A stretch of DNA of 64,000 bases from Octopus vulgaris (taxonomy: Eukaryota). The notes below the pieces were generated by a model. It did no database searches. It was not told the DNA's origin and saw only the letters and a program-made list of their open reading frames with translations. Position 1 is the stretch's first letter, and every line of letters starts with the position of its first letter. Location of the stretch: NCBI GenBank assembly GCA_951406725.2, contig OX597825.1, positions 63,736,001-63,800,000 on the forward strand, given 5' to 3'. The position numbers were made by a program, and so were the translations under genes. This document shows positions 2,366-63,145 of this stretch, in pieces.

Positions 2366-2786
2366 GGGTTCCGCAAGTCAACCACATTATACTTCTATTG
2401 CAACTCTCACCTTTACTGTATTGTTCCTACATCCTGTCCTATCACCCATTCCACAGAAATACACTCCGGTTATCTTAATTCACCAACAAAATTCCAAGAG
2501 CAGATTTGACAAAATATCATATTTGAAAGATGTAATAAATTCTGAACAATTTGATGATGAAAGGAACATAAGCGTAGGCTTTATATAGCCTGGATGAATA
2601 TATTTACATTATTCTATAAATCGCATTTAACTGTTTACGTTATTGTTTTCAATGAAGCCCAGTAATACCTTATATAAATATAAATACAAATCCTCTCTCC
2701 CCTTTCAAAGGCTTTTGAACGGGTGGAGTTATACTTGCTTTGCTCTTTGTTCCAAAACTGAATGCGCAGTCTCTCTCTTTTTCTAT

Positions 2787-2817
<31 letters not shown>

Positions 2818-3369
2818 CTCTTTTACTCTTTTACTTGTTTCAGTCATTTGACTGTCGCCATGCTGAAGCACCGCCTTTAGTCGAGCAAATCGATCCCGGG
2901 GCTTATTCTTTTGTAAGCCCAGTATTTATTCTATCGGTCTCTATTGCCGAACCGCTAAGTTACGGGGACGTAAACACACCAGCATCGGTTGTCAAGTGAT
3001 GTTGGGGGGACAAACACGGACACACAAACATACACGCACACATACATATATATACATATATACGACGGGCTTCTTTCAGTTTCCGTCTACCAAATCCACT
3101 CACAAGGCTTTGGTTGGCCCGGGGCTATAGCAGAAGACACTTGCCCAAGGTGCCACGCAGTGGGACTGAACCCGGAACCATGTGGTTGGTTAGCAAGCTA
3201 CTTTATTTCAAAACATTTGCCATAAAGGCAGTACACAGATTAAGTTAGCTTTGCGGGCTGGACGAGGACATTAATGAAGTGAATGATAATGAAAGAAAGA
3301 TGATAAGGATCGGAGAAGACAAAAAGCGCCCGCCGACTTTCGCTTCTCTAAAACATTGTTCTTTTTAAA

Positions 3370-3520
3370 GATAAACACAAAACGAGGTATTAAAACTCTT
3401 ACAATTTTCCCAATTTTTGGACTTAGCAGTCCATTATTAATAAAAATAAACACAAAACGAGGTATTAATCCTCTTACAATTTTTCAATTTTTGGAGTTAG
3501 CAGTCCATTACTAATAATAA
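3370..3520. repeat. Two-copy ~77-bp tandem duplication in the 3' UTR of the ORF1-only element
   Basis: ATAAACACAAAACGAGGTATTAA...CTCTTACAATTTT...TTAGCAGTCCATTA occurs twice in tandem. Confidence 0.9.
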
Positions 3521-4766
3521 CAGTTCAATGATTACATATTCCTCGAAATAGCTTGTGCCCGCGCCCTCCACCATCAACCACGCCTCCCTCAGAACGTAAT
3601 CAAGTTCCGAGTTGGCGTCGCCCGGTACCAAGTTATAATCTTCATTGAGCTCCTTTAGCCCAAGCGTCACGTCGAACGCCACGGCCTCTACAGCTACCTG
3701 CGGAGGCCATTCGGGGTCCTGTGTGAAGGCTAAAGGAGCTCCCTTGTAGTGCTCTTCCATCACTTTTTCAATTTCTCCTCCTCTATAGAAGAGGACCAAT
3801 ACGTTCAGTTCTTTCGTTGGCGGCACAGTTCCCGCCAACGGTATTCCTTCTCTTGTCGGTGGCACAACCCCAACCGACGTAGTTCCGGGACATTCCGGTG
3901 CTACACTGACAGCCGGTAATGTCCCGTTTTTCTTCCTCTTTTTCTTTTTTTTTCCCTTTTCAACTGAGGGAGGGTGCGTATCCTCCGTGGCTGGAAGATT
4001 TGCCTTCCTCTCCTCATCCCTATTATCTTTTGGTGAGCACCCATTGTTGCTTACCTTCCTCTTTCGGCCTCTGTTTGAGGAGTCCTCTGATTTCTCGGCC
4101 GTTATCATTCCCTCTTCTAGAGGGGTTTTACTTAACTGTTCCGGGATCCTATTTTGTTCCCGGGGACAGTCCTTCTTTATGTGGCCGGACTCCAAGCACC
4201 GATGACACTTAGGGGGGCGACCCTCAAGCATCACCGGGTATCTGCACCCGGCCATTTTCAAAAAATCTGGAAGAACCAGGTCGGCTGATTGGGTCCACAG
4301 GGTCAAAATTGCTTTTGACCCAACCCAAGCAGCCGCAGGAAGAACTTTTCATTAAGGAGCTTAGTTTCGCTGCCACCCAGACCCCGGCGGATAGTCTCCT
4401 CTATCCACTCGGGTTCTATGTCGGGTGGCAGTCCGCAAATCCAAGCTTTCATCAATTTCTTTTTTTGTACGTGGGCAGGAATAAGATTTCCTTACCCTCC
4501 AGGGGTTTGCTAGCAAATTTGCAAGCCTCTTCAGGAGTGTCAAATAGCAACCACACCATTGCATATTTGACACCCCTGGAAATGAATTTAATTGTTGGCA
4601 AATACTCTTCCAACTCCTTTTCAATTGCCGTCTTTTCGAATAGGGCGATGGTGTCGAGTGCCTTGGAGTAGGTTCTCAACACCACCGTCCTATCTTCACG
4701 GTCTTTTAACCACTTTTTAGGCGGTATGATCTCCCATTCCAAAAGTTTGTTTTTTTTCGTTGCCAT
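3497..4766 (-). pseudogene. L1/Tx1-like ORF1 protein (RRM-like N-terminus, CCHC zinc knuckle, basic low-complexity linker), about 423 aa after correcting two frameshifts
   Basis: ATG at 4766 in AAC-ATG-G context. MATKKNK...TVVLRTY...AMVWLLFDTPEEA...FLPTYK, shift near 4460 to KLMKAWICGLPPDIEPEWIEETIRR, shift near 4350 to KVLPAAAWVGSKAILTLW...LPDFLKMAGCRYPVMLEGRPPKCHRCLESGHIKKDC (CX2CX4HX4C). Confidence 0.8.
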
Positions 4767-5518
4767 GTTTTTTTTTTGTTTTTATTTTCGTTTTTTTTTT
4801 TTTTAAATGTATTCAGAATAAAACTAAAAAACGAGAAGAAAAGGAAATCAGAAGAAAGTCACAGTGAAAAAAGGAGAGAGTCAAATAAAGTTAAAAAGAA
4901 AGTCAATAACACAGCAAAAACCTTCTGGCCATTTGGTACTCCCGGCCTAAATTGAACCAGGAACGCACAACTTCCACAAAAATTGGTGTAAAATTGGTAA
5001 AAATTGTTCAAACTTCGGAGGCAAAATACTCCCCTATATAGTAGTTTTCACAATTCATAAAAGTTCTTCACAGCACAATACAATTCTCACAATTACGTGA
5101 GAAAAATATTTACTCAATTTATCGAAGACGGATACGCCCCCCAAAATTTTCTCAGTGAGAAAAATATATTTGCCACATGTCGGCAGAATCAGAATTCTGA
5201 ATCCAGTAGGACTTCCTGCCTGTAAAAAGCAATTCTCAACAAAAACTCCCACTGGACCCAGAAAACAGAATCTTACCTTACATGGGGCTTCCAAAGTTTT
5301 CAATTCAAGACGGCTTCAATAGCACGTCTTCACCGCTTCAGTGCCAAACACGACACTGACTCGCACATGCGCAGAAGCAACCGTTAGCAAGCTACTTACC
5401 ACACAGCCACTCCTGCGCCTATATATATATATATATATATAAAGACAGAGAGAGAGAGTGATACACATATACAAACACACACACGCACACACACACAAAT
5501 GCACACACATATACACAC

Positions 5519-6459: not shown

Positions 6460-6960
6460 GTTGTTGTTTTGACCCCCTTCGGTCATGCATGGCCATGGGT
6501 TTGCCCCTACAAAGTTACCCTCCGTGGCACAAGTCTTGGCAAGGTTCTTTATGGAAGACCAGCAGTCACCCACGCATACCAGCCTCCCCTCTCACGCCAC
6601 TGATGTTATCCAATGGAAAGGCAAAGGCCGATATAACTTGGCAGGAGGGACGTCGCAGCTTATTTATTAACGTGTAAGTGGCTGAGCACTGCACAGTCAT
6701 GTGTACTCTTAAGGAAGTTCTCGGGGAGATTCAGCCTGACACAGAGTGTGACAAGTCTGGCTCTTTAAAATACAGGTACAACAGAAACAGGAAGAAAGAG
6801 TGAGAGAGAAAGTTGTAGTGAAAAAGTACAGCAGGGTTCACGACCACCCCCTGCCAGAGCCTCGTGGAGGTTTAGGTGTTTTCGCTCAATAAACACTCAC
6901 AACGTCTGGTCTGAGTATCGAAACCGCGATCCGACGACCTCGAGTCCTAACCACTGGGCC
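6460..6960 (-). mobile_element. SINE family B copy with an additional repeat-derived 3' segment
   Basis: 6670-6960 is the reverse complement of the 15041/34906 SINE body. Confidence 0.8.
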
Positions 6961-15040: not shown

Positions 15041-15431
15041 TGTGGAGGCGCAATGGCCCAGTGATTAGGGCAGTGGACTCGCGGTTGTAGGATCGCGGTT
15101 TCGATTCCGAGACCGGGCATTGTGAGTGTTTATTGAGCGAAAACACCTAAAGCTCCACGAGGCTCCGGCAGGGGATGGTGGTGATCCCTGCTGTACTCTT
15201 TCACCACAACTTTCTCTCACACTTTCTTCCTGTTTCTGTTGTACCTGTATTTCAAAGGGCCGGCCTTGTCACTCTCTGTGTCACGCTGAATATCCCAGAA
15301 AAATACGTTAAGGGTACACGTGTCTGTGGAGTGCTCAGCCACTTACACGTTAATTTCACGAGCAGGCTGTTCCGTTGATTCGGATCAACCGGACCCTTCA
15401 TCGTCGTAACCGACGGAGTGCAAAAGAAGAG
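15041..15431 (+). mobile_element. Full-length tRNA-derived SINE family B with 12-bp TSD
   Basis: TSD ACCATCAGTCGA at 15029-15040 and 15432-15443. Head GGAGGCGCAATGGCCCAGTG...GGTTTCGATTCC. Confidence 0.9.
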
Positions 15432-16761: not shown

Positions 16762-17025
16762 GCGCATGTGTGGATCTGTGGTGAGATGTTTATCTCTCAA
16801 CTACACAGTTACGGGTTCAGTCCCACTGCGTTGCATTTTGGAATGGATTCAATAGTGTTTGACGGAGTCTGACAAAAGCCCTTAGTATATCTGTGCGTGT
16901 GTGCTTGTGTGAGTGTCTGTGTTTGTCCCCCAGCACTGCTTGACAACCGATGTTGATATGTCTACGTCCTCGTAATTTAATGAATCGGCAAAAGGGATCC
17001 AATATGATACAGCACTATATTTAAA
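16762..17025 (+). mobile_element. Diverged SINE family A
   Basis: GGGTTCAGTCCCACTGCG...TGTTTGTCCCC...GCTTGACAACCGATG. Confidence 0.7.
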
Positions 17026-20567: not shown

Positions 20568-20950
20568 CCCGGCTGTGTGGCAAAAAACAGTACGCCAACC
20601 ACATGGTCCCGAGCTCAGTCCCATTGCTTGGCACCTTAAAGAAGTGTCTTCTGCTATATCCTCGGACCAACCAAAGCCTTGTCAGTGGATTTGTTACACG
20701 GAAACCCAAAGAACCCGTCGTGTATATGTGTGTATCGGCGTGTGTCTTTGCGTTTGTGTTTGTCTACCACCATCGCTTGACAACCAATGTTAGTGCATTT
20801 TCGTCCTCGTAATTTAGTGACCCGATTGAATAAGTATTAGGCTTTAAAAATAAGTACGAGGTTCGAGTCATTCGATTAGAAGTTTTGAATGTGGTACCCT
20901 GGCATGGCCAGTCTAACGATTGAAAGAAGTATGTTGTGAAAGACAAAAGA
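20568..20950 (+). mobile_element. SINE family A copy
   Basis: GGCTGTGTGG...CCAACCACATGG...GGCACCTT...CCAAAGCCTTGT...CATCGCTTGACAACC. Confidence 0.8.
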
Positions 20951-24060: not shown

Positions 24061-26050
24061 AGAGTTCGATAATTGCCTTCATTATATTAAATGAATTACT
24101 CTCAACAATCAAAATTTCATATGAAGAATTACCTGTCGAAGAATTCCAACCCCAATTACAGAGTGGAACAGTGACAAAACTTCAAAATAAGAATTACCTG
24201 TCGATCCAAACCCCAATTACTGAGAGGAACTTGACAAAATAATTCTGGAAATGGAGGGAAGCAATTTCATTAATAAGGCCGAATCTAGGACTTTACGGTC
24301 AGAAAAAAAAGAACACCTGTATTTTATGGTCTCCTAAAAATACACAAAAAGTTCTAAATATTTTCTCCAATGCAACCAATTTGCTGCGGATATTTACGGC
24401 CAAGATTTCGAAATAGCTGAAGTTCCTATATTCGCGATACACCTGATTTTGTATCTGAAATCAACAAATTCGTTAAGCACCGAAGCCTGGAAGAAAGCAG
24501 GTTTTTGATAACCATGGATGTTTTCTTCCTTATATCGCAATATTGACCACGACGAAGAAGGGGTAGAAGCAAGCATGAATGCCTTTGAACATATGTCAAG
24601 CAAAAGTATTCCAATAACTTTTCTCTGTATGTTATTGTGTTATATTTTGCTAAACAATGAAATTTGGACAAAAATTTTACCACCACACGAGAAGTTGCAC
24701 CGTGGGTACCACCATGGCAGTTAATTTCGCTATTATCTTCAGACGAAGTGCGTTCCACAGTTACTGATGGCATACAGGTCATAAACCACTACTCTCGTTA
24801 CGGTTCATTGATGACGTATTTTCTCTGGGAAGGATAACAGGATACTTTAATTGATTTCTTGCATTTGTGTCACTGATATGCTAAAAACTACGGCCTTATG
24901 TCCAACATAAAATTTACGTCTTGGTTTTCAAAAGCTAGCGTTGAACTTTTGTACAGACAAATGAGTTTTCTGAAGGCAAAATAGTGACAGTTGTCATGCA
25001 CATTTACCTCCACCGCCGCTCCCATCATCCACATCATATAATTCGGTCAAATCTGAAATCCCTTTGAGGATAAAACGGATTTTTTTCTGACAGGGAATAC
25101 CGAAAGCATATAAATGATTTTGTAGTCCTTTATGTTAAACGCAGTTACAGTGAATCACGATTAAAAGAAATAGCAAATGAGATAATTTGCAAAGAAAGTC
25201 AGCCCTTCACGCATAATTTTATCAAACACAATAAAGTATGTGACAAAATTCCTTTAGTGATTAACTAGCACCGAAATTTCGCTGGCATTTCAAAAGTGTT
25301 GCACGAAAGTTACCAGCGTGCTGCGAAAGAATATATTCGTTTCAAACAGATATTTCTTCAGTCGACTATTGTAGCCTTTAGACGGAATAAAAACATAAGA
25401 ACTATTCACCTCTATTTCGGACTCCAAGTAGACTAACGTTGGAGTTTCTGCATACTGTACCTTGAAAAACAGCTGCAAGAGAGGTAAGTCCTGTTCATTG
25501 TGCAACCACATGCTTTAGGAATCATAACACAAATGTTATGATTTATAGAGAAGGTGGAACATGTAGAGATTTCCATTTGGTGTACGCGGCAGAATGCACG
25601 AAACACAACTTGATTTATGTTGGTTGTAATGCACAAAAATTAAACAAAAGATTTAATGGGCATAGATATGGCGTCAGACACAGTAACAGTAGTTCGACAC
25701 AACTTGCCGAACATTTAGCTTCAAAAAGCTTCAATTTTGAAAAAGATTTGAAAGTGCATATTCTCAGAAAAGTGCATATGCTCAGAATTATATTTGCAGG
25801 TTATTAACATCACGCCCTGGAGGAATGAATAAAATGAGAGGAGAATATTATCAAATTTACACTCAACAATTTGATTAAATATTCTTTTTTTCATTTCTTT
25901 TTTCTTTCCTTTCTTTTTTCTCTTTTTTATCAGTCTTTTTCTTTTTGTCAGTTATAAAATTGAAACGTAAACACTGACGATGGCTTTTCATCAACTTATG
26001 AATGCCGGCTGCTCTCGTTCATATCTTAGTTTCGAATTTATATAATTTGG
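24060..26050 (+). mobile_element. Decayed Penelope-like element (RT + Cys linker + GIY-YIG endonuclease)
   Basis: RT motifs YGLLKIHK, SYIRDT, TMDVF/SSLYRNIDHDEEG and GT.MAVNFA. Linker CKRGKSCSLCNHM. GIY-YIG segment LVYAAECTKHNLIYVG...KLNKRFNGHR. Downstream CTGACGA-TGGC...GCC hammerhead remnant. Confidence 0.85.
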
Positions 26051-29945: not shown

Positions 29946-30223
29946 GTGGTAGTATTGATTCCTAACAAGTGGTAGACGTAAGATTTGGATATAAAATATT
30001 GCAGGGATTTTGTTTATTAAACGATCCGCAACATATTACTAGTGCAGTAATCTTTCACCATAAAGAGGAACAGTATTGTCCAAGTCAAAAATATTAACAT
30101 ACCACATAAATTGTTGTTGCCGGTATGACTGTGTACTAAGAAGCTTTCTTCGCAACAACATGGTTCCGACTTCAGTCTCACTGCGTGGCAGCTTGGCCAA
30201 TTGTCTTCTCCTACAAGCCCGTC

Positions 30224-30289
<66 letters not shown>

Positions 30290-31504: not shown

Positions 31505-32900
31505 TATATATACACAGAATGAGATACATTTAAGAGTTTACAAAGAATTTGAGATGAACTGACCTGTTTTAGGATTTTTTATTTTGTGTGAAGCTAAATG
31601 TTTAATATTTGGTTCTTTATCCTTGCTCATGGTTCATAATGCTTGCTCTTGGGTAGCAACAATTTGAACCTCCGTTTCTGGTTTTAAATCACTTTCAGTC
31701 AGCCACACTCATCTGTTTTCTTTAACTGTATTGCCTTCATCATCCCTATAAAATTGTCCATGAAGCTTTTTTGTTTATCCACCTAGTTTCAGTTTTATTC
31801 ATTCTCAAGTCCTTGTATAGGACTTCATTATTTTTACAATTTTTCCTTACCATGCTATGTTATTTTCTTCTGTTCTAATGCTGTGTTCGCATCCAATCAG
31901 TATTCTTCCCCTTGAATTTTCTTGCTTCATACAGTCTGTCTGTGTCACTCTGTGGGTGGAGTATCTCATATAAAGTCAGCAACTTCTTTGTCTATCTCTC
32001 TAAGTTGTTACGTTCGACTTCAGTCCATGCGATTATCCCTACTCCATATCTAAGGAGTGAAACTACCCAGATGTTGATAGCTTCAACCTCATTCCGTCCG
32101 TTTGATTTCGACTAAGAAATCAGTCTCAGTCTGCGCAAGTACTCCCCCTTAAATGTTTATGTCATTTCTTTCTCCCCAAGTACTTATAGCCCGTCGCTTC
32201 AATCCACTTCATAACCTACCCTGACCATATCGCTATCCCATCCATACATTTGATTTTGCCTCCCTTTCAAGATTAACACACCACACTTCTTCAGTCCGAA
32301 CGCCATTCTGATACCAGCACTGAATGTATACACCGTATGAACGAGTAAACTGCTTTGGGATTCTTCTTTACCATAAATTTTGGTGTCATCCATGTATAAC
32401 AAATGACTGACTTTTTGTTGGCGGCTCTTGAATACATACCCAGTCTCAGAATCAGTGTTAGTGGAATCATGCACAGTACAAAGATCAGTGGTGACAGGCA
32501 GACTCCTCGGAAAATGACTCCCCTGATTTCTATTGTCTCTAAACTTCTTCCATATGCTGTTAGTTCCCTCCTCCACTCCTCCACTTCACCATACTATTTC
32601 CAAGCAATCGTTCAATATTCGATGCAATACCAAATAGGTTCATATATTCCATAAACCAAGAATGTGGGATCGTATCGTATGCCTTACGATAGCCTATCCA
32701 TGATATGCCAAAGTTAGTTTTCATCCTCTTGCAACCTCTCAGTAGTTTTGTCCACCAGGAATTGATCCTTAGTACCTCTTCACTTACGCTTGCACCCATT
32801 CTTCTCATGTGGCTGGAATCCACTTTTTCCAGATTCTCCTTATTTTTCCATACGCAATTGGAGCATCCAATGACGGTTTCCAAACAACCATAATGGTAAA
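31505..32900 (-). mobile_element. Decayed R4/Dong-like non-LTR retrotransposon fragment (RT and downstream region)
   Basis: WIGYRKAYDTIPHSW, EIRGVIFRGVCLSPLIFVLCMIPL, KVSHLLYMDDTKIYGK, MAFGLKKC, KKLHGQF and WLTESDLKPETEVQIVATQEQAL. Confidence 0.85.
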
Positions 32901-33074
32901 ACCGTATTTGGGAACTACTTATATAGAACTCTGGTAATATTTATTTCTCCATTATAAATATAAGTTTGTGGGGCGGGGTGTATATTTGTGTGTGCCTCAC
33001 GTGTGCAGGGTTGAGATTGTGTGGATTATGATAGATGGATAACCCTTTATTTAATATTATTCCTTGTTCGAAGT

Positions 33075-33270: not shown

Positions 33271-34905
33271 TAATATTTGCACATGTCTGTAAAAATACTC
33301 AGCCAAGTAATTCAAGGTACACAAGGCTGAGATGATTGAAGAAGAAACCACATATAATCGGAAATTATTACCAACATTAATTTATTTAAGCTTGAAAACT
33401 TTAATTCACGGAATGCCTAAAGTGGATGAAATTGACAATAGTATTAGGATAATACTGAATTTTATCTGCCCTGGAAGCATGAGAAGCAAGTTGCATAGCA
33501 TGGAATTTGAATTCAGCTGATACAGCGCCATAATTAAATACCAAAATATATTGAAGATATCTTTGCCTTTCATAAGGTTGTTTTAGCTAAGGTTCATATT
33601 TTTCTCTATTTTATTGCTATGATATTAACACAACAAGCAGAATATTTATTAGTATATCCCCATTTGCAGGGAGTCGTTTTAGCTCATATTAAAGGTATTA
33701 ATATTTGCAGGTTTATATCGAAATAGTTACCTTAACATTGCATGTATATATGCGTATTTATATGTGCGTGTATGAGTGTGCGTGCACGAAACTATCTTTT
33801 TGCAGAAGAATAAAGGAAATTTTGTTATCTTGAGTATTGCGAAATTATCCCAAATAACTGTAAGAATATTAGGATTTACAGCAGCGATGGCAGCAATTCT
33901 TACATGAAAATGTTTTATATAATTAACAGCAAAACAAGTAATTGTAACGGAGTCGTAGATAGTGTCTGCAACAATAAGGATTACAGTGAAAAATATGACA
34001 GTGGCTGTTCCTAAGCACAAATAGCAAACATAAGAACAGTAAGCATATATTACACATGGGAAAAAATCACACAGATCATTAATACGACACACATAGAAGC
34101 ACAGATAAAAATAGACATTAATAAAATGACATAAAGTTACTGAAGTATATGTGAGCTAAAAACATGGTTGAGGAAATGGGGGAAAATGTATAATGATATT
34201 CATTTGAATTTCTTTTAAAAATGTACTTTTATAACGCATGGAAACATTTTGAGAATAATATTACAATCTACACGGAAATAATGGGCGATTCTTTTCAGAT
34301 TAGCGGACTAATTTTTGAGTGTACGATTCTAGAACCGAGTATGTTACTGCCGTATAAGTAACAGACGTTTGAAAATAATAAAAAAAATTTATAGTTCTAA
34401 AATGTTTCTAGATGCCACAGCGTTTATGGCACCAGGAATAAGTAGGCTTTAATTTGCCGTGGCCATTTTTACAAAATTGGCTTCTGAACAACTGCTCGTT
34501 CTAAACTTAAACTAGAGCAATGTTTTGTATATTAACTTGTACCATTCCCCGCGGGTGTCTTGAGAATAATGCAGGGTTATCTCAAAACCATTTCCTGTAA
34601 ACAAACCAAAAAAAAGTTGGAATTCAGTTCAACAATTCGTATTTTAATGTTAAGGGCATATACAGGTATTCTGATCAAGAGTAGTGACGGACAAAATCAA
34701 ATATAACGATTGGTACACCATTCACAAGAACACGAACGAGAAAACCATCAAAAGTGATAGAACGAAAACGAAAATCACTGAATGCTATTGTTGCTTTCGT
34801 AAAACGTTCCATTTCTAAATATGCGGCTATCGAGGAAGACCGGCCCAATGTTTAAAAATGAAAAAAACAAACATCTATTACGTTTTGTGTGTATACTAGG
34901 CCTTT

Positions 34906-35297
34906 GTGGAGGCGCAATGGCCCAGTGGTTAGGGCAGCGGACTCGCGGTCATAGGATCGCTGTTTCGATTCCCAGACCGGGCGTTGTGAGTGTTTATTGA
35001 GCGAAAACACCTAAAGCTCCACGAGGCTCCGACAGGGGATGGTGGTGATCCCTGATGTACTCTTTCGCCACAACTTTCTCTCACTCTTACTTCCTGTTTC
35101 TGTTGTACCTTGTATTTCAAAGGGCCGGCCTTGTCACTCTCTGTGTCACGCTGAATATCCCCGAGAACTACGTTAAGGGTACACGTGTCTGTGGAGTGCT
35201 CAACCACTTACACGTTAATTTCACGAGCAGGCTGTTCCGTTGATTCGGATCAACCGGACCCCTCGTCGTCGTAACCGACGGAGTGCTTCCACACATT
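34906..35297 (+). mobile_element. Full-length SINE family B with 10-bp TSD
   Basis: TSD CTAGGCCTTT at 34896-34905 and 35298-35307. Near-identical to 15041-15431. Confidence 0.9.
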
Positions 35298-52053: not shown

Positions 52054-52227
52054 AGGCGTAGGAGTGGCTGTGTGGTAAGTAGCTTGTTTACCAACCACAT
52101 GGCTCCGGGTTTAGTTCCACTGCGGGGCACCTTGGGCAAGCGTCTTCAACTATAGCCTTGGGCCGACCAAAGTCTTGTGAGTGGATTTGGCAGGCGGAAA
52201 GTGAAAGTAGCCCGTCGTATATATGTT

Positions 52228-52258
<31 letters not shown>

Positions 52259-52464
52259 GTATATGTTTGTGTGTCTGTTTTTGTCCCCCCAACATCGCTT
52301 GACAACTGATGCTGGTGTGTTTACGTTCTTGTAACTTAACGGTTTGGCAAAAGAGACCGATGGTGCGGTGCCCATTAAGTCCTGGGGTCGATTTGCTCGA
52401 CTAAAAAGAAAGGCGGTGCTCCAGTATGGCCACAGTCAAATGACTGAAACAAGTAAAAGAGTAA
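52054..52464 (+). mobile_element. Full-length SINE family A
   Basis: AGGCGTAGGAGTGGCTGTGTGGTAAGTAGCTTG...CTTGGGCAAG...AATGACTGAAACAAGTAAAAGAGTAAA. Confidence 0.9.
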
Positions 52465-53819
52465 ATATGCATAGATACTTTCTGCGTATATATACATATA
52501 TAAATAATATATAAAGCGTATATGCATGTGAACATGTACTGTCTATCTATCAGTCTGTTTGCTTGTCTGTCTATCTAGATGTGTGTGGCGAGGTGTATAA
52601 ACCCTGATTGATTGTATGCTTATTTTCGCGTGTGTTTATATACTTACCGGTAATTTCGTTTTCCTACAGTATTTCCCTAGTTACTAAAAAGTTAAATCCC
52701 ATGGAACTACAGGAAGTCTTATTATTTCATCTCAGCATTTATGTAAAATGCTATCTTAAGTCTGTAGGTGTGTATGTAAGTACGTATGCACATACATACA
52801 GACAAAGAGATAGATTTCTAGAATAATGTATATATAGAGAGATAGGGAGAGGGATAAATGGATATGCATACACTCACTCTCATATATATGTGTATATGTG
52901 TTTATGTCTGTATGTATGTATGTAGGTATATATTTGTTTTAAAACTATAAGTATATACGTACGTACAAACGTATTTAGCGTGGGACGGAAATTGTGCGAC
53001 ATTTCTATATCGAGCAAGTTGAGTATTTGGAGTGGAAATAACTGTGCCACCGGGTAAGTATCGTTGAAGTAGTTTCCAAGAGACCAAACCGAATACTGTT
53101 CTAAAGTTTCTGTTTTACTTACGTCTCACTGAGTCTCAATTTAGATCCAACGGAGAGATTCAATTATATTTAGTTACGATTGAATAAATTGCAACCGAGC
53201 AAACATTATACGCAACAAAGGATTGCCTTATTTCTTTTTTATCTACTTGGATTTTATAAAACAGGAAATAATATCAGTATCACATAGCAGTTATTATTTT
53301 ATGAATATTTACTGTCAAAATGGAATTTACATGGAATGCTGTAAATCCTTATGGGAAAACTTTCATATAGTATTATATAATATTTTGGAAAAAAATTAAT
53401 ATATACGATATGTAGTCTTATGTCAATATATTATTCAGTCACATGGAAAAATTCTCGATGGAATCAATACTGTACTGAAATTAAAAAGAAAGAAATGTCG
53501 TTCTTGCTACAACTAATTATTCTCTGAATTGTATTAGAACCTAACTTATTGTGTTTGAAATTGTCGGCTGTTCTATGAAACAGAATGAATAGAAACAAAA
53601 TAATTTTGAACGAATGAATGCATGCATATATACATACATACATCCATGCATACATACAAGAACACTGACACGCACACACACATACGCAGAAACATACACA
53701 CGCATACAAACATACATACATATAAATATATATATATATATAACATGTTAAAAAAGTGGGATAGGCACATGGAAATATATATAGGCATATATGTATCAGT
53801 GCATGTATGTGTATGCGAA

Positions 53820-60570: not shown

Positions 60571-61010
60571 AGGCGCAGGAGTGGTTGGGTGGTAAGAAGG
60601 TTACTTTCCAACCACTTGGTTCGGGCTTCAGTGTCACTGCGTGAGACCCTGGACAAGTGTCTTCTACTATAGCCGCGTGCCCACCAAAGCCTTGTGAGTG
60701 GATTTGGTAGACGGAAACTGAAAAGAAGCCCGTTCTATATATGTGTGTGTATGTGTGTGTACGTGTGTGTGTAAACGCGTGTCTGTACTTGTGTTTGTCC
60801 CCCACAACTGCTTGACAGCCGGTGGTGGTGTGATTACGTCCCTTAACTTAGCAGTTCGGCAAAATATACAGATGCAATAAATACCAGGTTTAAAGTAGAA
60901 AAAAAAGTACCTGGGTCGAATCATTTATCTAAATTTCTTGAAAGCTTTATTCCAGCATGTCCGCATTTTAATAACGACTGAAATGAGTAAAAGGATAGAA
61001 GAAAAAAGAT
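60571..61010 (+). mobile_element. Full-length diverged SINE family A
   Basis: AGGCGCAGGAGTGGTTGGGTGGTAAG...CCAAAGCCTTGTGAGTGGATTTGGTAGACGGAAACTG. Confidence 0.85.
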
Positions 61011-62080: not shown

Positions 62081-62154
62081 GTCTATCTATTTATAAATTT
62101 ATATATTAATTTCTCTCTCTCGGTATATATATATATATCTATATATATATACAC

Positions 62155-62187
<33 letters not shown>

Positions 62188-62191
<4 letters not shown>

Positions 62192-63145
62192 GTCCAGCAG
62201 ATTGTAAAACGAGGCCTTGACGTCGTCTTCAGAAGTGAGAGTACACTTAAGGCATCTGTCTCGAATAAGCGGGATCCGAACAATCAGCAGGTGTTCGCTG
62301 ACAGCAGTTTGGACCAGTCTGTTGATCCACGAGTTTCGTTTCGATGGCAAGGCCAACACCGTGGATGCGTCTTCCGTTAGGATTTTTTCTCTTCCAAAAC
62401 ATGGTGTATTTGGAGCCAGCTTCTCTGATGCTGCCTTCTCCAGGAAGCTACTCTCGCTGAAGGCTGCCACGTCGATGCAGAAGTGGGCAAGTTCCGTCCA
62501 GACGAGGGCTGTTCGTCGCTCCGAACGATTAATGCCACTATTGTCCTGGAGAGTGCGGATGTTTCTGGCCGTCAGAGGTTTTGAAATAAAGGATTTAGTT
62601 TAGATGATGGATGAGTAGAAGTAGAATTTTGGCCGCTGAATGGGAGGTCCACCAGCTGCGGTATGCCGGCCAGATTGAGTTGCCCTGTCCGATGTTTACC
62701 CCACGTTCTCTAAGAGCTCCTAAAGAGGCTAGCCCTGTCACGAGTCGTGCTGCCGAAATCCAATGTCACGGCTATTCCTTGTAGAGCGACCATCTAAGAT
62801 TCGCAGCCAATGTGGGGCATCAAGCTTTCTAAACCTGCCTCTGGCGCCCGCGATACCATCGGCAATGGGTTCTTTTTTCTTGAGACTCAAACAGTAGAAA
62901 GACGAAGCTAGTCGCTGAGTAAATTGTTTGAAGTGATCGTAGCTGCACGACAGCCACGCGCATGCACTTGGCCAGGAACTTCTCCATTGCGGGTCAAGTA
63001 TTGAGACGTGCAGTTTTGTTGAGGTTGGTTGCAGCGAAGTGCTGGAGTCTATCTGCCTTTGTCACGCCTGCCCGCAAGGCGTTGCATTCTTCTGCCGGCA
63101 TTACTCCATGGGGGTTTGAGATTGTCCTCTTCTGCTTGCTTTGCC

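What the first reader, a model, noticed from the sequence alone, without database searches (positions are those of the whole stretch)
3189..5397. Self-contained ORF1-only retroelement (HAL1-like) with a perfect 15-bp TSD
Seen: a 2179-bp segment bounded by exact GTTAGCAAGCTACTT duplications. Both copies read GTTA where the intact SINE at 52054 reads GTAA, which supports a true TSD. The segment holds a ~615-nt leader starting GG, one ORF1-type reading frame (RRM-like + CX2CX4HX4C), and a ~290-nt 3' UTR ending in a small TGCC/GGCA hairpin and AATAAA. There is no trace of endonuclease or RT. Established: 15-bp TSDs without TIRs indicate target-primed reverse transcription, and ORF1-only 'half-L1' elements are known from a few lineages. 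Inference: this is a non-autonomous family that supplies its own RNP chaperone and borrows ORF2 from an L1/Tx1 partner. I do not recall one described in cephalopods.
Basis: partly seen in the sequence, partly recalled or inferred. Interest (0 to 1): 0.8.

Follow-up and report, generated by a model that had tools for sequence, protein, structure and literature searches.

The report
Octopus ORF1-only retroposon inside a SINE
A 2.2-kb jumping gene that encodes an RNA-binding protein but no copying enzyme has landed inside another short repeat; it belongs to a multi-copy family that most likely borrows the enzyme from a full LINE, a way of life already known from mammals and insects, with an unproven hint that it aims at that short repeat.

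Summary
The insertion is real. It is 2179 bp on the minus strand with an exact 15-bp TSD, and the flanks rejoin as one SINE. It holds one ORF1-type gene (RRM fold plus CCHC knuckle), broken here by two frameshifts in A runs, and no endonuclease or RT. A whole natural homologue is an Octopus sinensis protein, 56-74% identical.

Contigs of 4 of 4 runs cover all 30 bins, some at 30-67 times single-copy depth. Other copies lack both frameshifts, and 13 of 23 listed ORF differences are synonymous against 25% expected. So this is a family with a selected ORF1.

The ORF1-to-3'UTR join is bridged by one independent contig; DNA-run cover almost vanishes at 3530-3539. Copies running on into ORF2 are therefore not excluded, and no partner was found.

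It works like HAL1, HeT-A or Ag-Sponge but is not a HAL1. Extra lead: its first 14 nt pair with the host SINE head, and one diverged copy also abuts that head, hinting at SINE targeting.

The parts
3204..5382 (-). ORF1-only non-LTR retroposon copy, 2179 bp, apparently full length
   Evidence: bounded by the exact TSD; all 30 bins covered by contigs in 4 of 4 runs
5383..5397 (.). target-site duplication, 5' side of the element
3189..3203 (.). target-site duplication, 3' side; its 3' TT is the inferred primer end (nick at ...CTACTT/ACC)
   Evidence: nick position is inference from TPRT geometry
4767..5382 (-). 5' leader, 616 nt; NRF1-like TGCGCATGTGCG at 5373-5362 and initiator-like TCAGT at 5359-5355 (both motif names recalled, not from a call)
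   Evidence: first 100 nt fold better than shuffles (z -2.65, 2 of 200)
5369..5382 (-). first 14 nt of the element, complementary (Watson-Crick plus G.U) to the host SINE head at 5418-5405
   Evidence: best of 2159 windows of the element; 6 of 5000 shuffles as good
4460..4766 (-). ORF1 piece 1 (ATG at 4766), probable first RRM-like domain (fold not resolved)
   Evidence: 74% identical to P0001; Atlas neighbours with ZCCHC3-type RBDs
4346..4459 (-). ORF1 piece 2, start of the RRM domain
   Evidence: 69% identical to P0001; P0001 residues 102-185 match RRM folds, Z up to 8.4
3497..4345 (-). ORF1 piece 3: end of RRM, CCHC knuckle (4207-4166), basic disordered stretch, acidic C-terminal ~110 aa of no known family
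3366..3520 (-). 75-bp tandem duplication (90% alike) across the stop codon and 3' UTR
3204..3496 (-). 3' UTR, 293 nt, ends ...GAAATA with no poly(A) tail
5398..5419 (-). 5' end of the host SINE head (A-box-like TGGCTGTGTGG; box name recalled)
2789..3188 (-). rest of the host SINE (B-box-like GGTTCAGTCCC and body; box name recalled)
   Evidence: 79% like the uninterrupted copy at 52077-52507

Best explanation
This is one full-length copy of a multi-copy, protein-coding but non-autonomous non-LTR retroposon of an octopus. SHOWN: a discrete insertion with a 15-bp TSD and no LTR or TIR; a single type I ORF1 (RRM fold + CCHC knuckle); no EN/RT; many near-identical copies; synonymous excess among ORF differences. 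INFERRED: (1) the 616-nt leader carries an internal Pol II promoter; (2) ORF1p coats its own RNA; (3) an APE-RT ORF2p from an autonomous L1/Tx1-type LINE nicks the target at ...CTACTT/ACC (a TT/A site) and primes reverse transcription from the 3' TT on the A's at the RNA end, which leaves no poly(A); (4) the second nick 15 nt away gives the TSD. The two frameshifts are private to this copy or are homopolymer errors of the assembly.
For: TSD and rejoined SINE. Whole homologue P0001 = O. sinensis XP_029652367.1, E 4.8e-36, spanning all three pieces. RRM fold for P0001 102-185: RNA-binding domains of that fold fill most of the 50 rows, Z 6.6-8.4; Atlas feature hits 0.90-0.93 to zf-CCHC and ZCCHC3-RBD clusters. 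Contigs cover 30 of 30 bins in 4 of 4 runs; 20 of 24 listed runs hold part of the stretch, 9 studies, 4 organism labels. Single contigs reach 30-67 times the median depth of the most diverged listed pieces, which I take as single copy. Contigs unbroken at both frameshift sites occur in 4 of 4 runs (table 4). 13 of 23 listed ORF differences are synonymous, 10 of 16 near-fixed ones; 25% expected, P about 0.001-0.002, and 0.015-0.017 if 33% is expected. X7 record 25, a different copy (7 substitutions, 25 gap letters), runs unbroken from 3686 to 3380 across the stop codon with no ORF2. 3'UTR/ORF depth ratio is only 1.3-1.6 in X1, X3 and X12. O. vulgaris has 13 recently active L1-Tx1 families that could supply ORF2 (PMC13282606 Table 1).
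Against: Cover collapses at 3530-3539 in X1, X3 and X12: zero at 3539 in X3 and X12, about 1.4 copies' worth in X1. This fits a private indel of about 13 nt in this copy (13 of record 25's gap letters are unlisted) but also a junction where other copies leave for ORF2. No listed contig spans the whole element; 1729 loose ends and 363 joints were not shown. Only 40 of 201 differences were shown, chosen by support. No partner LINE sharing the 3' end was found (window only). No poly(A) tail. The fold rests on a weak model of the homologue (mean pLDDT 46); Foldseek gave no hit at E<=0.001. RRM + CCHC does not fix the clade (PMC5203782 passages). Selection on ORF1 would also be seen in an autonomous lineage. 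Depth is not a proper copy number.
Confidence: 0.7

Rival explanations
1. The family is an ordinary autonomous Tx1/L1-type LINE (ORF1 + ORF2). This copy is a rare internally deleted or early-terminated derivative joined at about 3530-3545 and mobilised once or a few times.
For: Cover trough at 3530-3539 in X1, X3 and X12; no contig spans the whole stretch; 3236-3387 is deeper than 3388-3615 in 4 of 4 runs; selection on ORF1 is equally expected.
Against: X7 record 25 is an unbranched 282-nt contig of a different copy across the site, and is the main contig there (75 of 75 depth at 3496 and 3539; 75 of 101 at 3626). 3'UTR/ORF depth 1.3-1.6 shows little of the 3' excess expected across several kb of ORF2. 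No ORF2 remnant in the 3' UTR frames. No longer homologue of P0001 among 1831 candidates of 493-2000 aa (weak, since ORF1 and ORF2 are usually separate).
Confidence: 0.2
2. Processed pseudogenes of a host gene domesticated from ORF1 (ZCCHC3-like), copied by LINE machinery.
For: P0001 is annotated as a gene with three accession numbers in O. sinensis; ZCCHC3-like clusters are among the Atlas neighbours; leader-ORF-UTR layout.
Against: Tens to hundreds of near-identical copies, and subfamily variants whose share differs between runs. P0001 is only 56-74% identical and lacks the C-terminal 140 aa, fast for a conserved gene within one genus. The 5' leader is 6-9 times shallower than the ORF in X1, X3 and X12, as with leader turnover or truncation in LINEs.
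Confidence: 0.06
3. Remnant of another class (LTR, DIRS, Penelope or a DNA transposon) carrying a gag-like gene.
For: The CCHC knuckle is shared with gag proteins; no poly(A) tail.
Against: 15-bp TSD, no LTR or TIR; the domain before the knuckle is an RRM, not a capsid fold.
Confidence: 0.04

Closest known systems
HAL1 (half-L1) of mammals (PMC5753468 and PMC5786205, passages; Bao and Jurka 2010 not held)
   Same: Non-autonomous non-LTR element encoding only ORF1p; arose several times independently.
   Different: HAL1 derives from mammalian L1 with a type II ORF1 (Transposase_22); this one has RRM + CCHC (type I), is in a mollusc, and has no poly(A) in this copy.
HeT-A (Jockey clade) and Ag-Sponge (CR1 clade), named as ORF1-present non-autonomous LINEs in PMC5786205 (passage)
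   Same: ORF1-only coding, dependence on a partner's RT.
   Different: Other clades; HeT-A is telomeric, this element is interstitial with a TSD.
Tx1-clade LINEs with target preference: Tx1 in Tx1D, Tx1-Mar with SINEU in Mariner-N4_AMi, Keno in U2 (PMC4494074, passages and section 15)
   Same: Type I ORF1 is consistent with Tx1 (PMC5203782 passage); insertion into another repeat; 15-16 bp TSD.
   Different: These are autonomous or non-coding partners. The passages read list no SINE-head target and no pairing of the element's 5' end with its target. No RT here, so the clade is untested.
ZCCHC3-type RBD1-RBD2-CCHC proteins (Pfam PF23057/PF23058)
   Same: Feature neighbours at 0.89-0.90 in the Atlas.
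   Different: No direct Pfam hit to these families; this is a dispersed mobile repeat.

Membership tests
ORF1-present non-autonomous LINE (general kind) | TPRT signature: TSD, no LTR or TIR | tested here: met
ORF1-present non-autonomous LINE (general kind) | Encodes an ORF1-type protein | tested here: met
   CCHC, RRM fold in the homologue, Atlas
ORF1-present non-autonomous LINE (general kind) | No endonuclease or RT within the element | tested here: met
   0 of 33 frames or pieces hit an EN/RT family
ORF1-present non-autonomous LINE (general kind) | Multi-copy family | tested here: met
   30 of 30 bins in 4 of 4 runs; single contigs at 30-67 times single-copy depth
ORF1-present non-autonomous LINE (general kind) | Most copies share the ORF1-only layout and both ends | tested here: inconclusive
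   one independent bridging contig; trough at 3530-3539; loose-end table swamped by SINE contigs
ORF1-present non-autonomous LINE (general kind) | Autonomous partner sharing the 3' end or ORF1 | not testable with these tools
   no genome held; none in the window; none in three public collections
HAL1 | Derived from mammalian L1, type II ORF1 (Transposase_22) | tested here: not met
   no Transposase_22 hit at E<=1; a CCHC knuckle is present instead; the host is a mollusc
HAL1 | 3' poly(A) tail (feature recalled for L1 derivatives) | tested here: not met
   3' junction has no A run in this copy; other copies not seen
Tx1 clade | RT phylogeny | not testable with these tools
   no RT in the element and no partner in hand
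Tx1 clade | Type I ORF1 (RRM + CCHC) | tested here: met
   not exclusive to Tx1 (PMC5203782)
Tx1 clade | Target preference (over 20% of flanks one repeat, criterion of PMC4494074) | tested here: inconclusive
   two junctions seen: this copy and X7 record 32

The most novel reading that the evidence does not exclude
The family (or its partner LINE) targets the tRNA-like head of the abundant octopus SINE, and the element's first 14 nt, which pair without a break with that head, are kept as a pairing sequence. They would either guide the RNP to SINE DNA or nascent SINE RNA, or fold with upstream SINE sequence to process a read-through transcript. That would be a three-tier system (LINE enzyme, ORF1-only rider, SINE landing pad) with an RNA-pairing step in target choice. 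For: best of 2159 windows of the element; 6 of 5000 shuffles; 10 of 24766 window-wide 20-mers as good; all five non-Watson-Crick pairs are G.U; the pairing also holds for two other SINE heads in the window. X7 record 32, a copy about 86% alike, aligns from its first letter at 5410 through the junction to 5167. Against: noticed post hoc; 5 of the pairs come from a GCGCA promoter-like motif; record 32 reaches only 28 nt into the flank (under the tool's 31-nt bridging rule) and its letters and gap places were not shown; this SINE fills about 3% of the window, so one hit can be chance. I put SINE-head preference alone at about 0.4.
Probability: 0.12. Interest if true: 0.75.

Novelty: new member of a known kind. 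Interest (0 to 1): 0.42.

Why it matters
It would add a mollusc, and a type I (Tx1/L1-like) ORF1, to the short published list of ORF1-only LINE derivatives (HAL1, HeT-A, Ag-Sponge). A young family with a selected ORF1 and no ORF2 is a natural test of what ORF1p does for a trans-mobilised RNA. If the SINE-head preference and the 5'-end pairing hold, it would give a testable case of RNA pairing in LINE target choice, which is usually put down to the endonuclease.

Tried and rejected
No whole genome held.
Word-index protein searches: window piece 0 of 1909 candidates; P0001 only itself among 684; 0 of 1831 longer candidates.
Related loci: none in metagenome, viral or prokaryote contigs. A 19-nt leader motif gave one metagenome locus, L001, a GC-rich chance match with no further likeness.
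Single-sequence model of P0001 failed (pLDDT 38). Foldseek on the alignment model gave only weak ferredoxin-like rows (best E 0.024). The first domain and the acidic C-terminal part were not resolved; no Pfam family for the latter.
PDB sequence search gave zinc knuckles and weak RRM rows only.
Rfam at E<=1 over 2700-5500 gave no ribozyme or tRNA, only a microsatellite artefact; ARAGORN found 0 genes, so the tRNA-like reading of the SINE head is recalled, not tested.
3' hairpin rejected as significant.
No RNA holder on record; X7 as RNA is a guess, so expression is not shown.
CpG decay explains only 4 of 28 near-fixed differences.
Rejected: LTR, DIRS or DNA-transposon origin (no terminal repeats); the RT and GIY-YIG fragments elsewhere in the window as partners (no shared sequence).
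Earlier findings: nothing by sequence or place or by the first word set.
Nine paper searches listed no description of an ORF1-only element in cephalopods; Repbase, Dfam and the O. vulgaris library on Zenodo could not be searched, and the one supplement of PMC13282606 was listed but not opened.

Full report
Observation. The 15-mer GTTAGCAAGCTACTT is exact at 3189-3203 and 5383-5397, with 2179 bp between. Removing the insert and one copy restores a SINE, 79% like the uninterrupted copy at 52077-52507. Both TSD copies share two differences from that copy, and the commoner SINE contigs read GTA where both read GTT, so the duplication is real. Element and SINE both lie on the minus strand, and the insertion falls between the A-box-like and B-box-like motifs of the SINE head (motif names recalled). 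There are no terminal repeats. Three details need correcting: the ORF is in three frames, with both breaks in A runs; there is no poly(A), and AATAAA needs two TSD bases; the 3' hairpin is at chance level.

The protein. The long piece has a CCHC knuckle (E 0.0012). Of 1.84 billion representatives, 17 scored E<=0.001 and one stood out, P0001 at 4.8e-36. It is Octopus sinensis XP_029652367.1, uncharacterised, 281 aa. It spans all three pieces in order at 74, 69 and 56% identity, so they are one gene, and the window is very likely octopus DNA (inference). A 14-row model of P0001 is weak overall (pLDDT 46), and Foldseek found nothing at E<=0.001. The wide structural search matched residues 102-185 mostly to RRM-type domains (top Z 8.4, rmsd 1.9, 66 residues), a middling Z by the tool's own note. 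Atlas feature neighbours at 0.90-0.93 are zf-CCHC and ZCCHC3-RBD clusters. This is a type I ORF1 as defined in PMC5203782 (passages), typical of but not confined to Tx1. No endonuclease or RT family was hit in 33 frames or pieces.

Is it a family? No genome was held. Of 24 listed runs, 20 hold part of the stretch, from 9 studies and 4 organism labels. I laid 4 of them. All 30 bins are covered in all four. Taking the most diverged listed pieces as single copy (medians 66, 50 and 7 in X1, X3, X12), single contigs reach 30-67 times that depth; this is a lower bound by inference, since the tool warns that depth is no copy number. Contigs unbroken at both frameshift sites occur in 4 of 4 runs. Of the 40 differences shown (of 201), 23 lie in the ORF; 13 are synonymous, and 10 of the 16 near-fixed ones, against 25% expected (P 0.001-0.002; 0.015-0.017 at 33%). 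So ORF1 was under purifying selection between close lineages. The leader is 6-9 times shallower than the ORF in X1, X3 and X12 but not in X7, which fits leader turnover or 5' truncation.

Do other copies also lack ORF2? For: X7 record 25, 282 nt, a different copy, runs unbranched from 3686 to 3380 across the stop codon and is the main contig there; the 3'UTR/ORF depth ratio is only 1.3-1.6 in X1, X3 and X12 (2.9 in X7). Against: cover at 3539 is zero in X3 and X12 and about 1.4 copies' worth in X1. A private indel of about 13 nt would explain this, as 13 of record 25's 25 gap letters are not listed, but so would a junction to ORF2. The loose-end and joint tables were filled by SINE contigs (1729 and 363 rows hidden), no listed piece spans the element, and the call could not be repeated. 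This is the main open point.

Mechanism. The most likely course is trans-mobilisation by target-primed reverse transcription. The leader drives transcription, ORF1p binds its own RNA, and an ORF2p from an autonomous L1/Tx1-type LINE nicks at ...CTACTT/ACC and primes on the terminal A's, giving no tail and a 15-bp TSD. The insertion anatomy, coding content, copy number and selection are shown; promoter, partner and trans-mobilisation are inferred. O. vulgaris has 13 recently active L1-Tx1 families (PMC13282606, text parts 1-2 of 3 read). I put this at 0.70, a rare deletion product of an autonomous LINE at 0.20, retrocopies of a domesticated gene at 0.06, other classes at 0.04.

An unexpected feature. 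The element's first 14 nt pair without a break with the SINE head just upstream (5418-5405), five pairs being G.U; the 81-nt junction folds at z -4.3, 0 of 200 shuffles. That first window is the best of 2159 in the element; 6 of 5000 shuffles and 10 of 24766 window-wide 20-mers do as well; two of three other SINE heads tested pair equally, the third being a poorly placed, diverged slice. X7 record 32, about 86% alike and carrying minority variants seen in all four runs, aligns from its first letter at 5410 across the junction to 5167, so a second copy may sit in the same SINE head. Both points are post hoc, the contig falls short of the 31-nt bridging rule, and part of the pairing comes from a GCGCA motif. 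An old fold-back capture of SINE sequence, or chance, would also do. Rfam shows no ribozyme.

Comparison. ORF1-only non-autonomous LINEs are known: HAL1, HeT-A and Ag-Sponge (PMC5786205 passages; PMC5753468 passages; Bao and Jurka 2010 not held). Tx1 elements that prefer other repeats are known (PMC4494074 passages and section 15). This element works like HAL1 but fails HAL1 membership (ORF1 type, host lineage); its clade cannot be set without an RT. Passages of two octopus TE papers (PMC8967140, PMC9115989) and nine searches showed no such element in cephalopods, but Repbase, Dfam and the Zenodo library could not be checked, so it may already be catalogued as an unknown repeat. Earlier notes of this scan report similar ORF1-only elements in at least 6 other genomes and LINEs landing in tRNA-like heads; these are unchecked leads, and they lower the surprise.

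Verdict. A real, probably young member of a known kind, apparently undescribed in octopus. Interest 0.42. The bold reading, SINE-head targeting with RNA pairing, has probability about 0.12 and interest 0.75 if true; one BLAST on an octopus assembly would decide most of it.

Noticed in passing
window 5369-5382 with 5405-5418: The element's 5' end is complementary to the host SINE head just upstream (14 pairs, 5 G.U).
   Followed up: partly
window 3497-3830 (-): Acidic C-terminal ~110 aa of ORF1, absent from the O. sinensis homologue, with no Pfam family; not folded.
   Followed up: partly
window 3366-3520: 75-bp tandem duplication across the stop codon and 3' UTR; other copies show small gaps in this region.
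   Followed up: partly
window 3204-5382: Differences from run contigs are strand-skewed (T>C 31-40 against A>G 14-20 per run), also in DNA runs; only 4 of 28 near-fixed ones are in CpG context. Unexplained.
   Followed up: partly
window 32202-32940 (-): Decayed reverse-transcriptase fragments (RVT_1, E 0.0019 and 0.017); no sequence shared with the element.
   Followed up: partly
window 25466-25804 (+): GIY-YIG endonuclease fragment (E 0.00018), probably Penelope-like (inference).
   Followed up: partly
window 62102-62599 (-): Frame that looks like a decayed LINE endonuclease (resemblance recalled); no Pfam hit.
   Followed up: partly
window 15041-15421, 34905-35286, 6666-6960: A second, younger repeat family: two 382-bp copies 95% alike and a third about 86% alike. 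Its 5'-like end also pairs with the host SINE head, probably as a related tRNA-like head.
   Followed up: no
window 52054-52507, 60571-60903, 20571-20817, 16798-16997, 30138-30247: Further copies of the host SINE family, 74-81% alike; about 3% of the window.
   Followed up: partly
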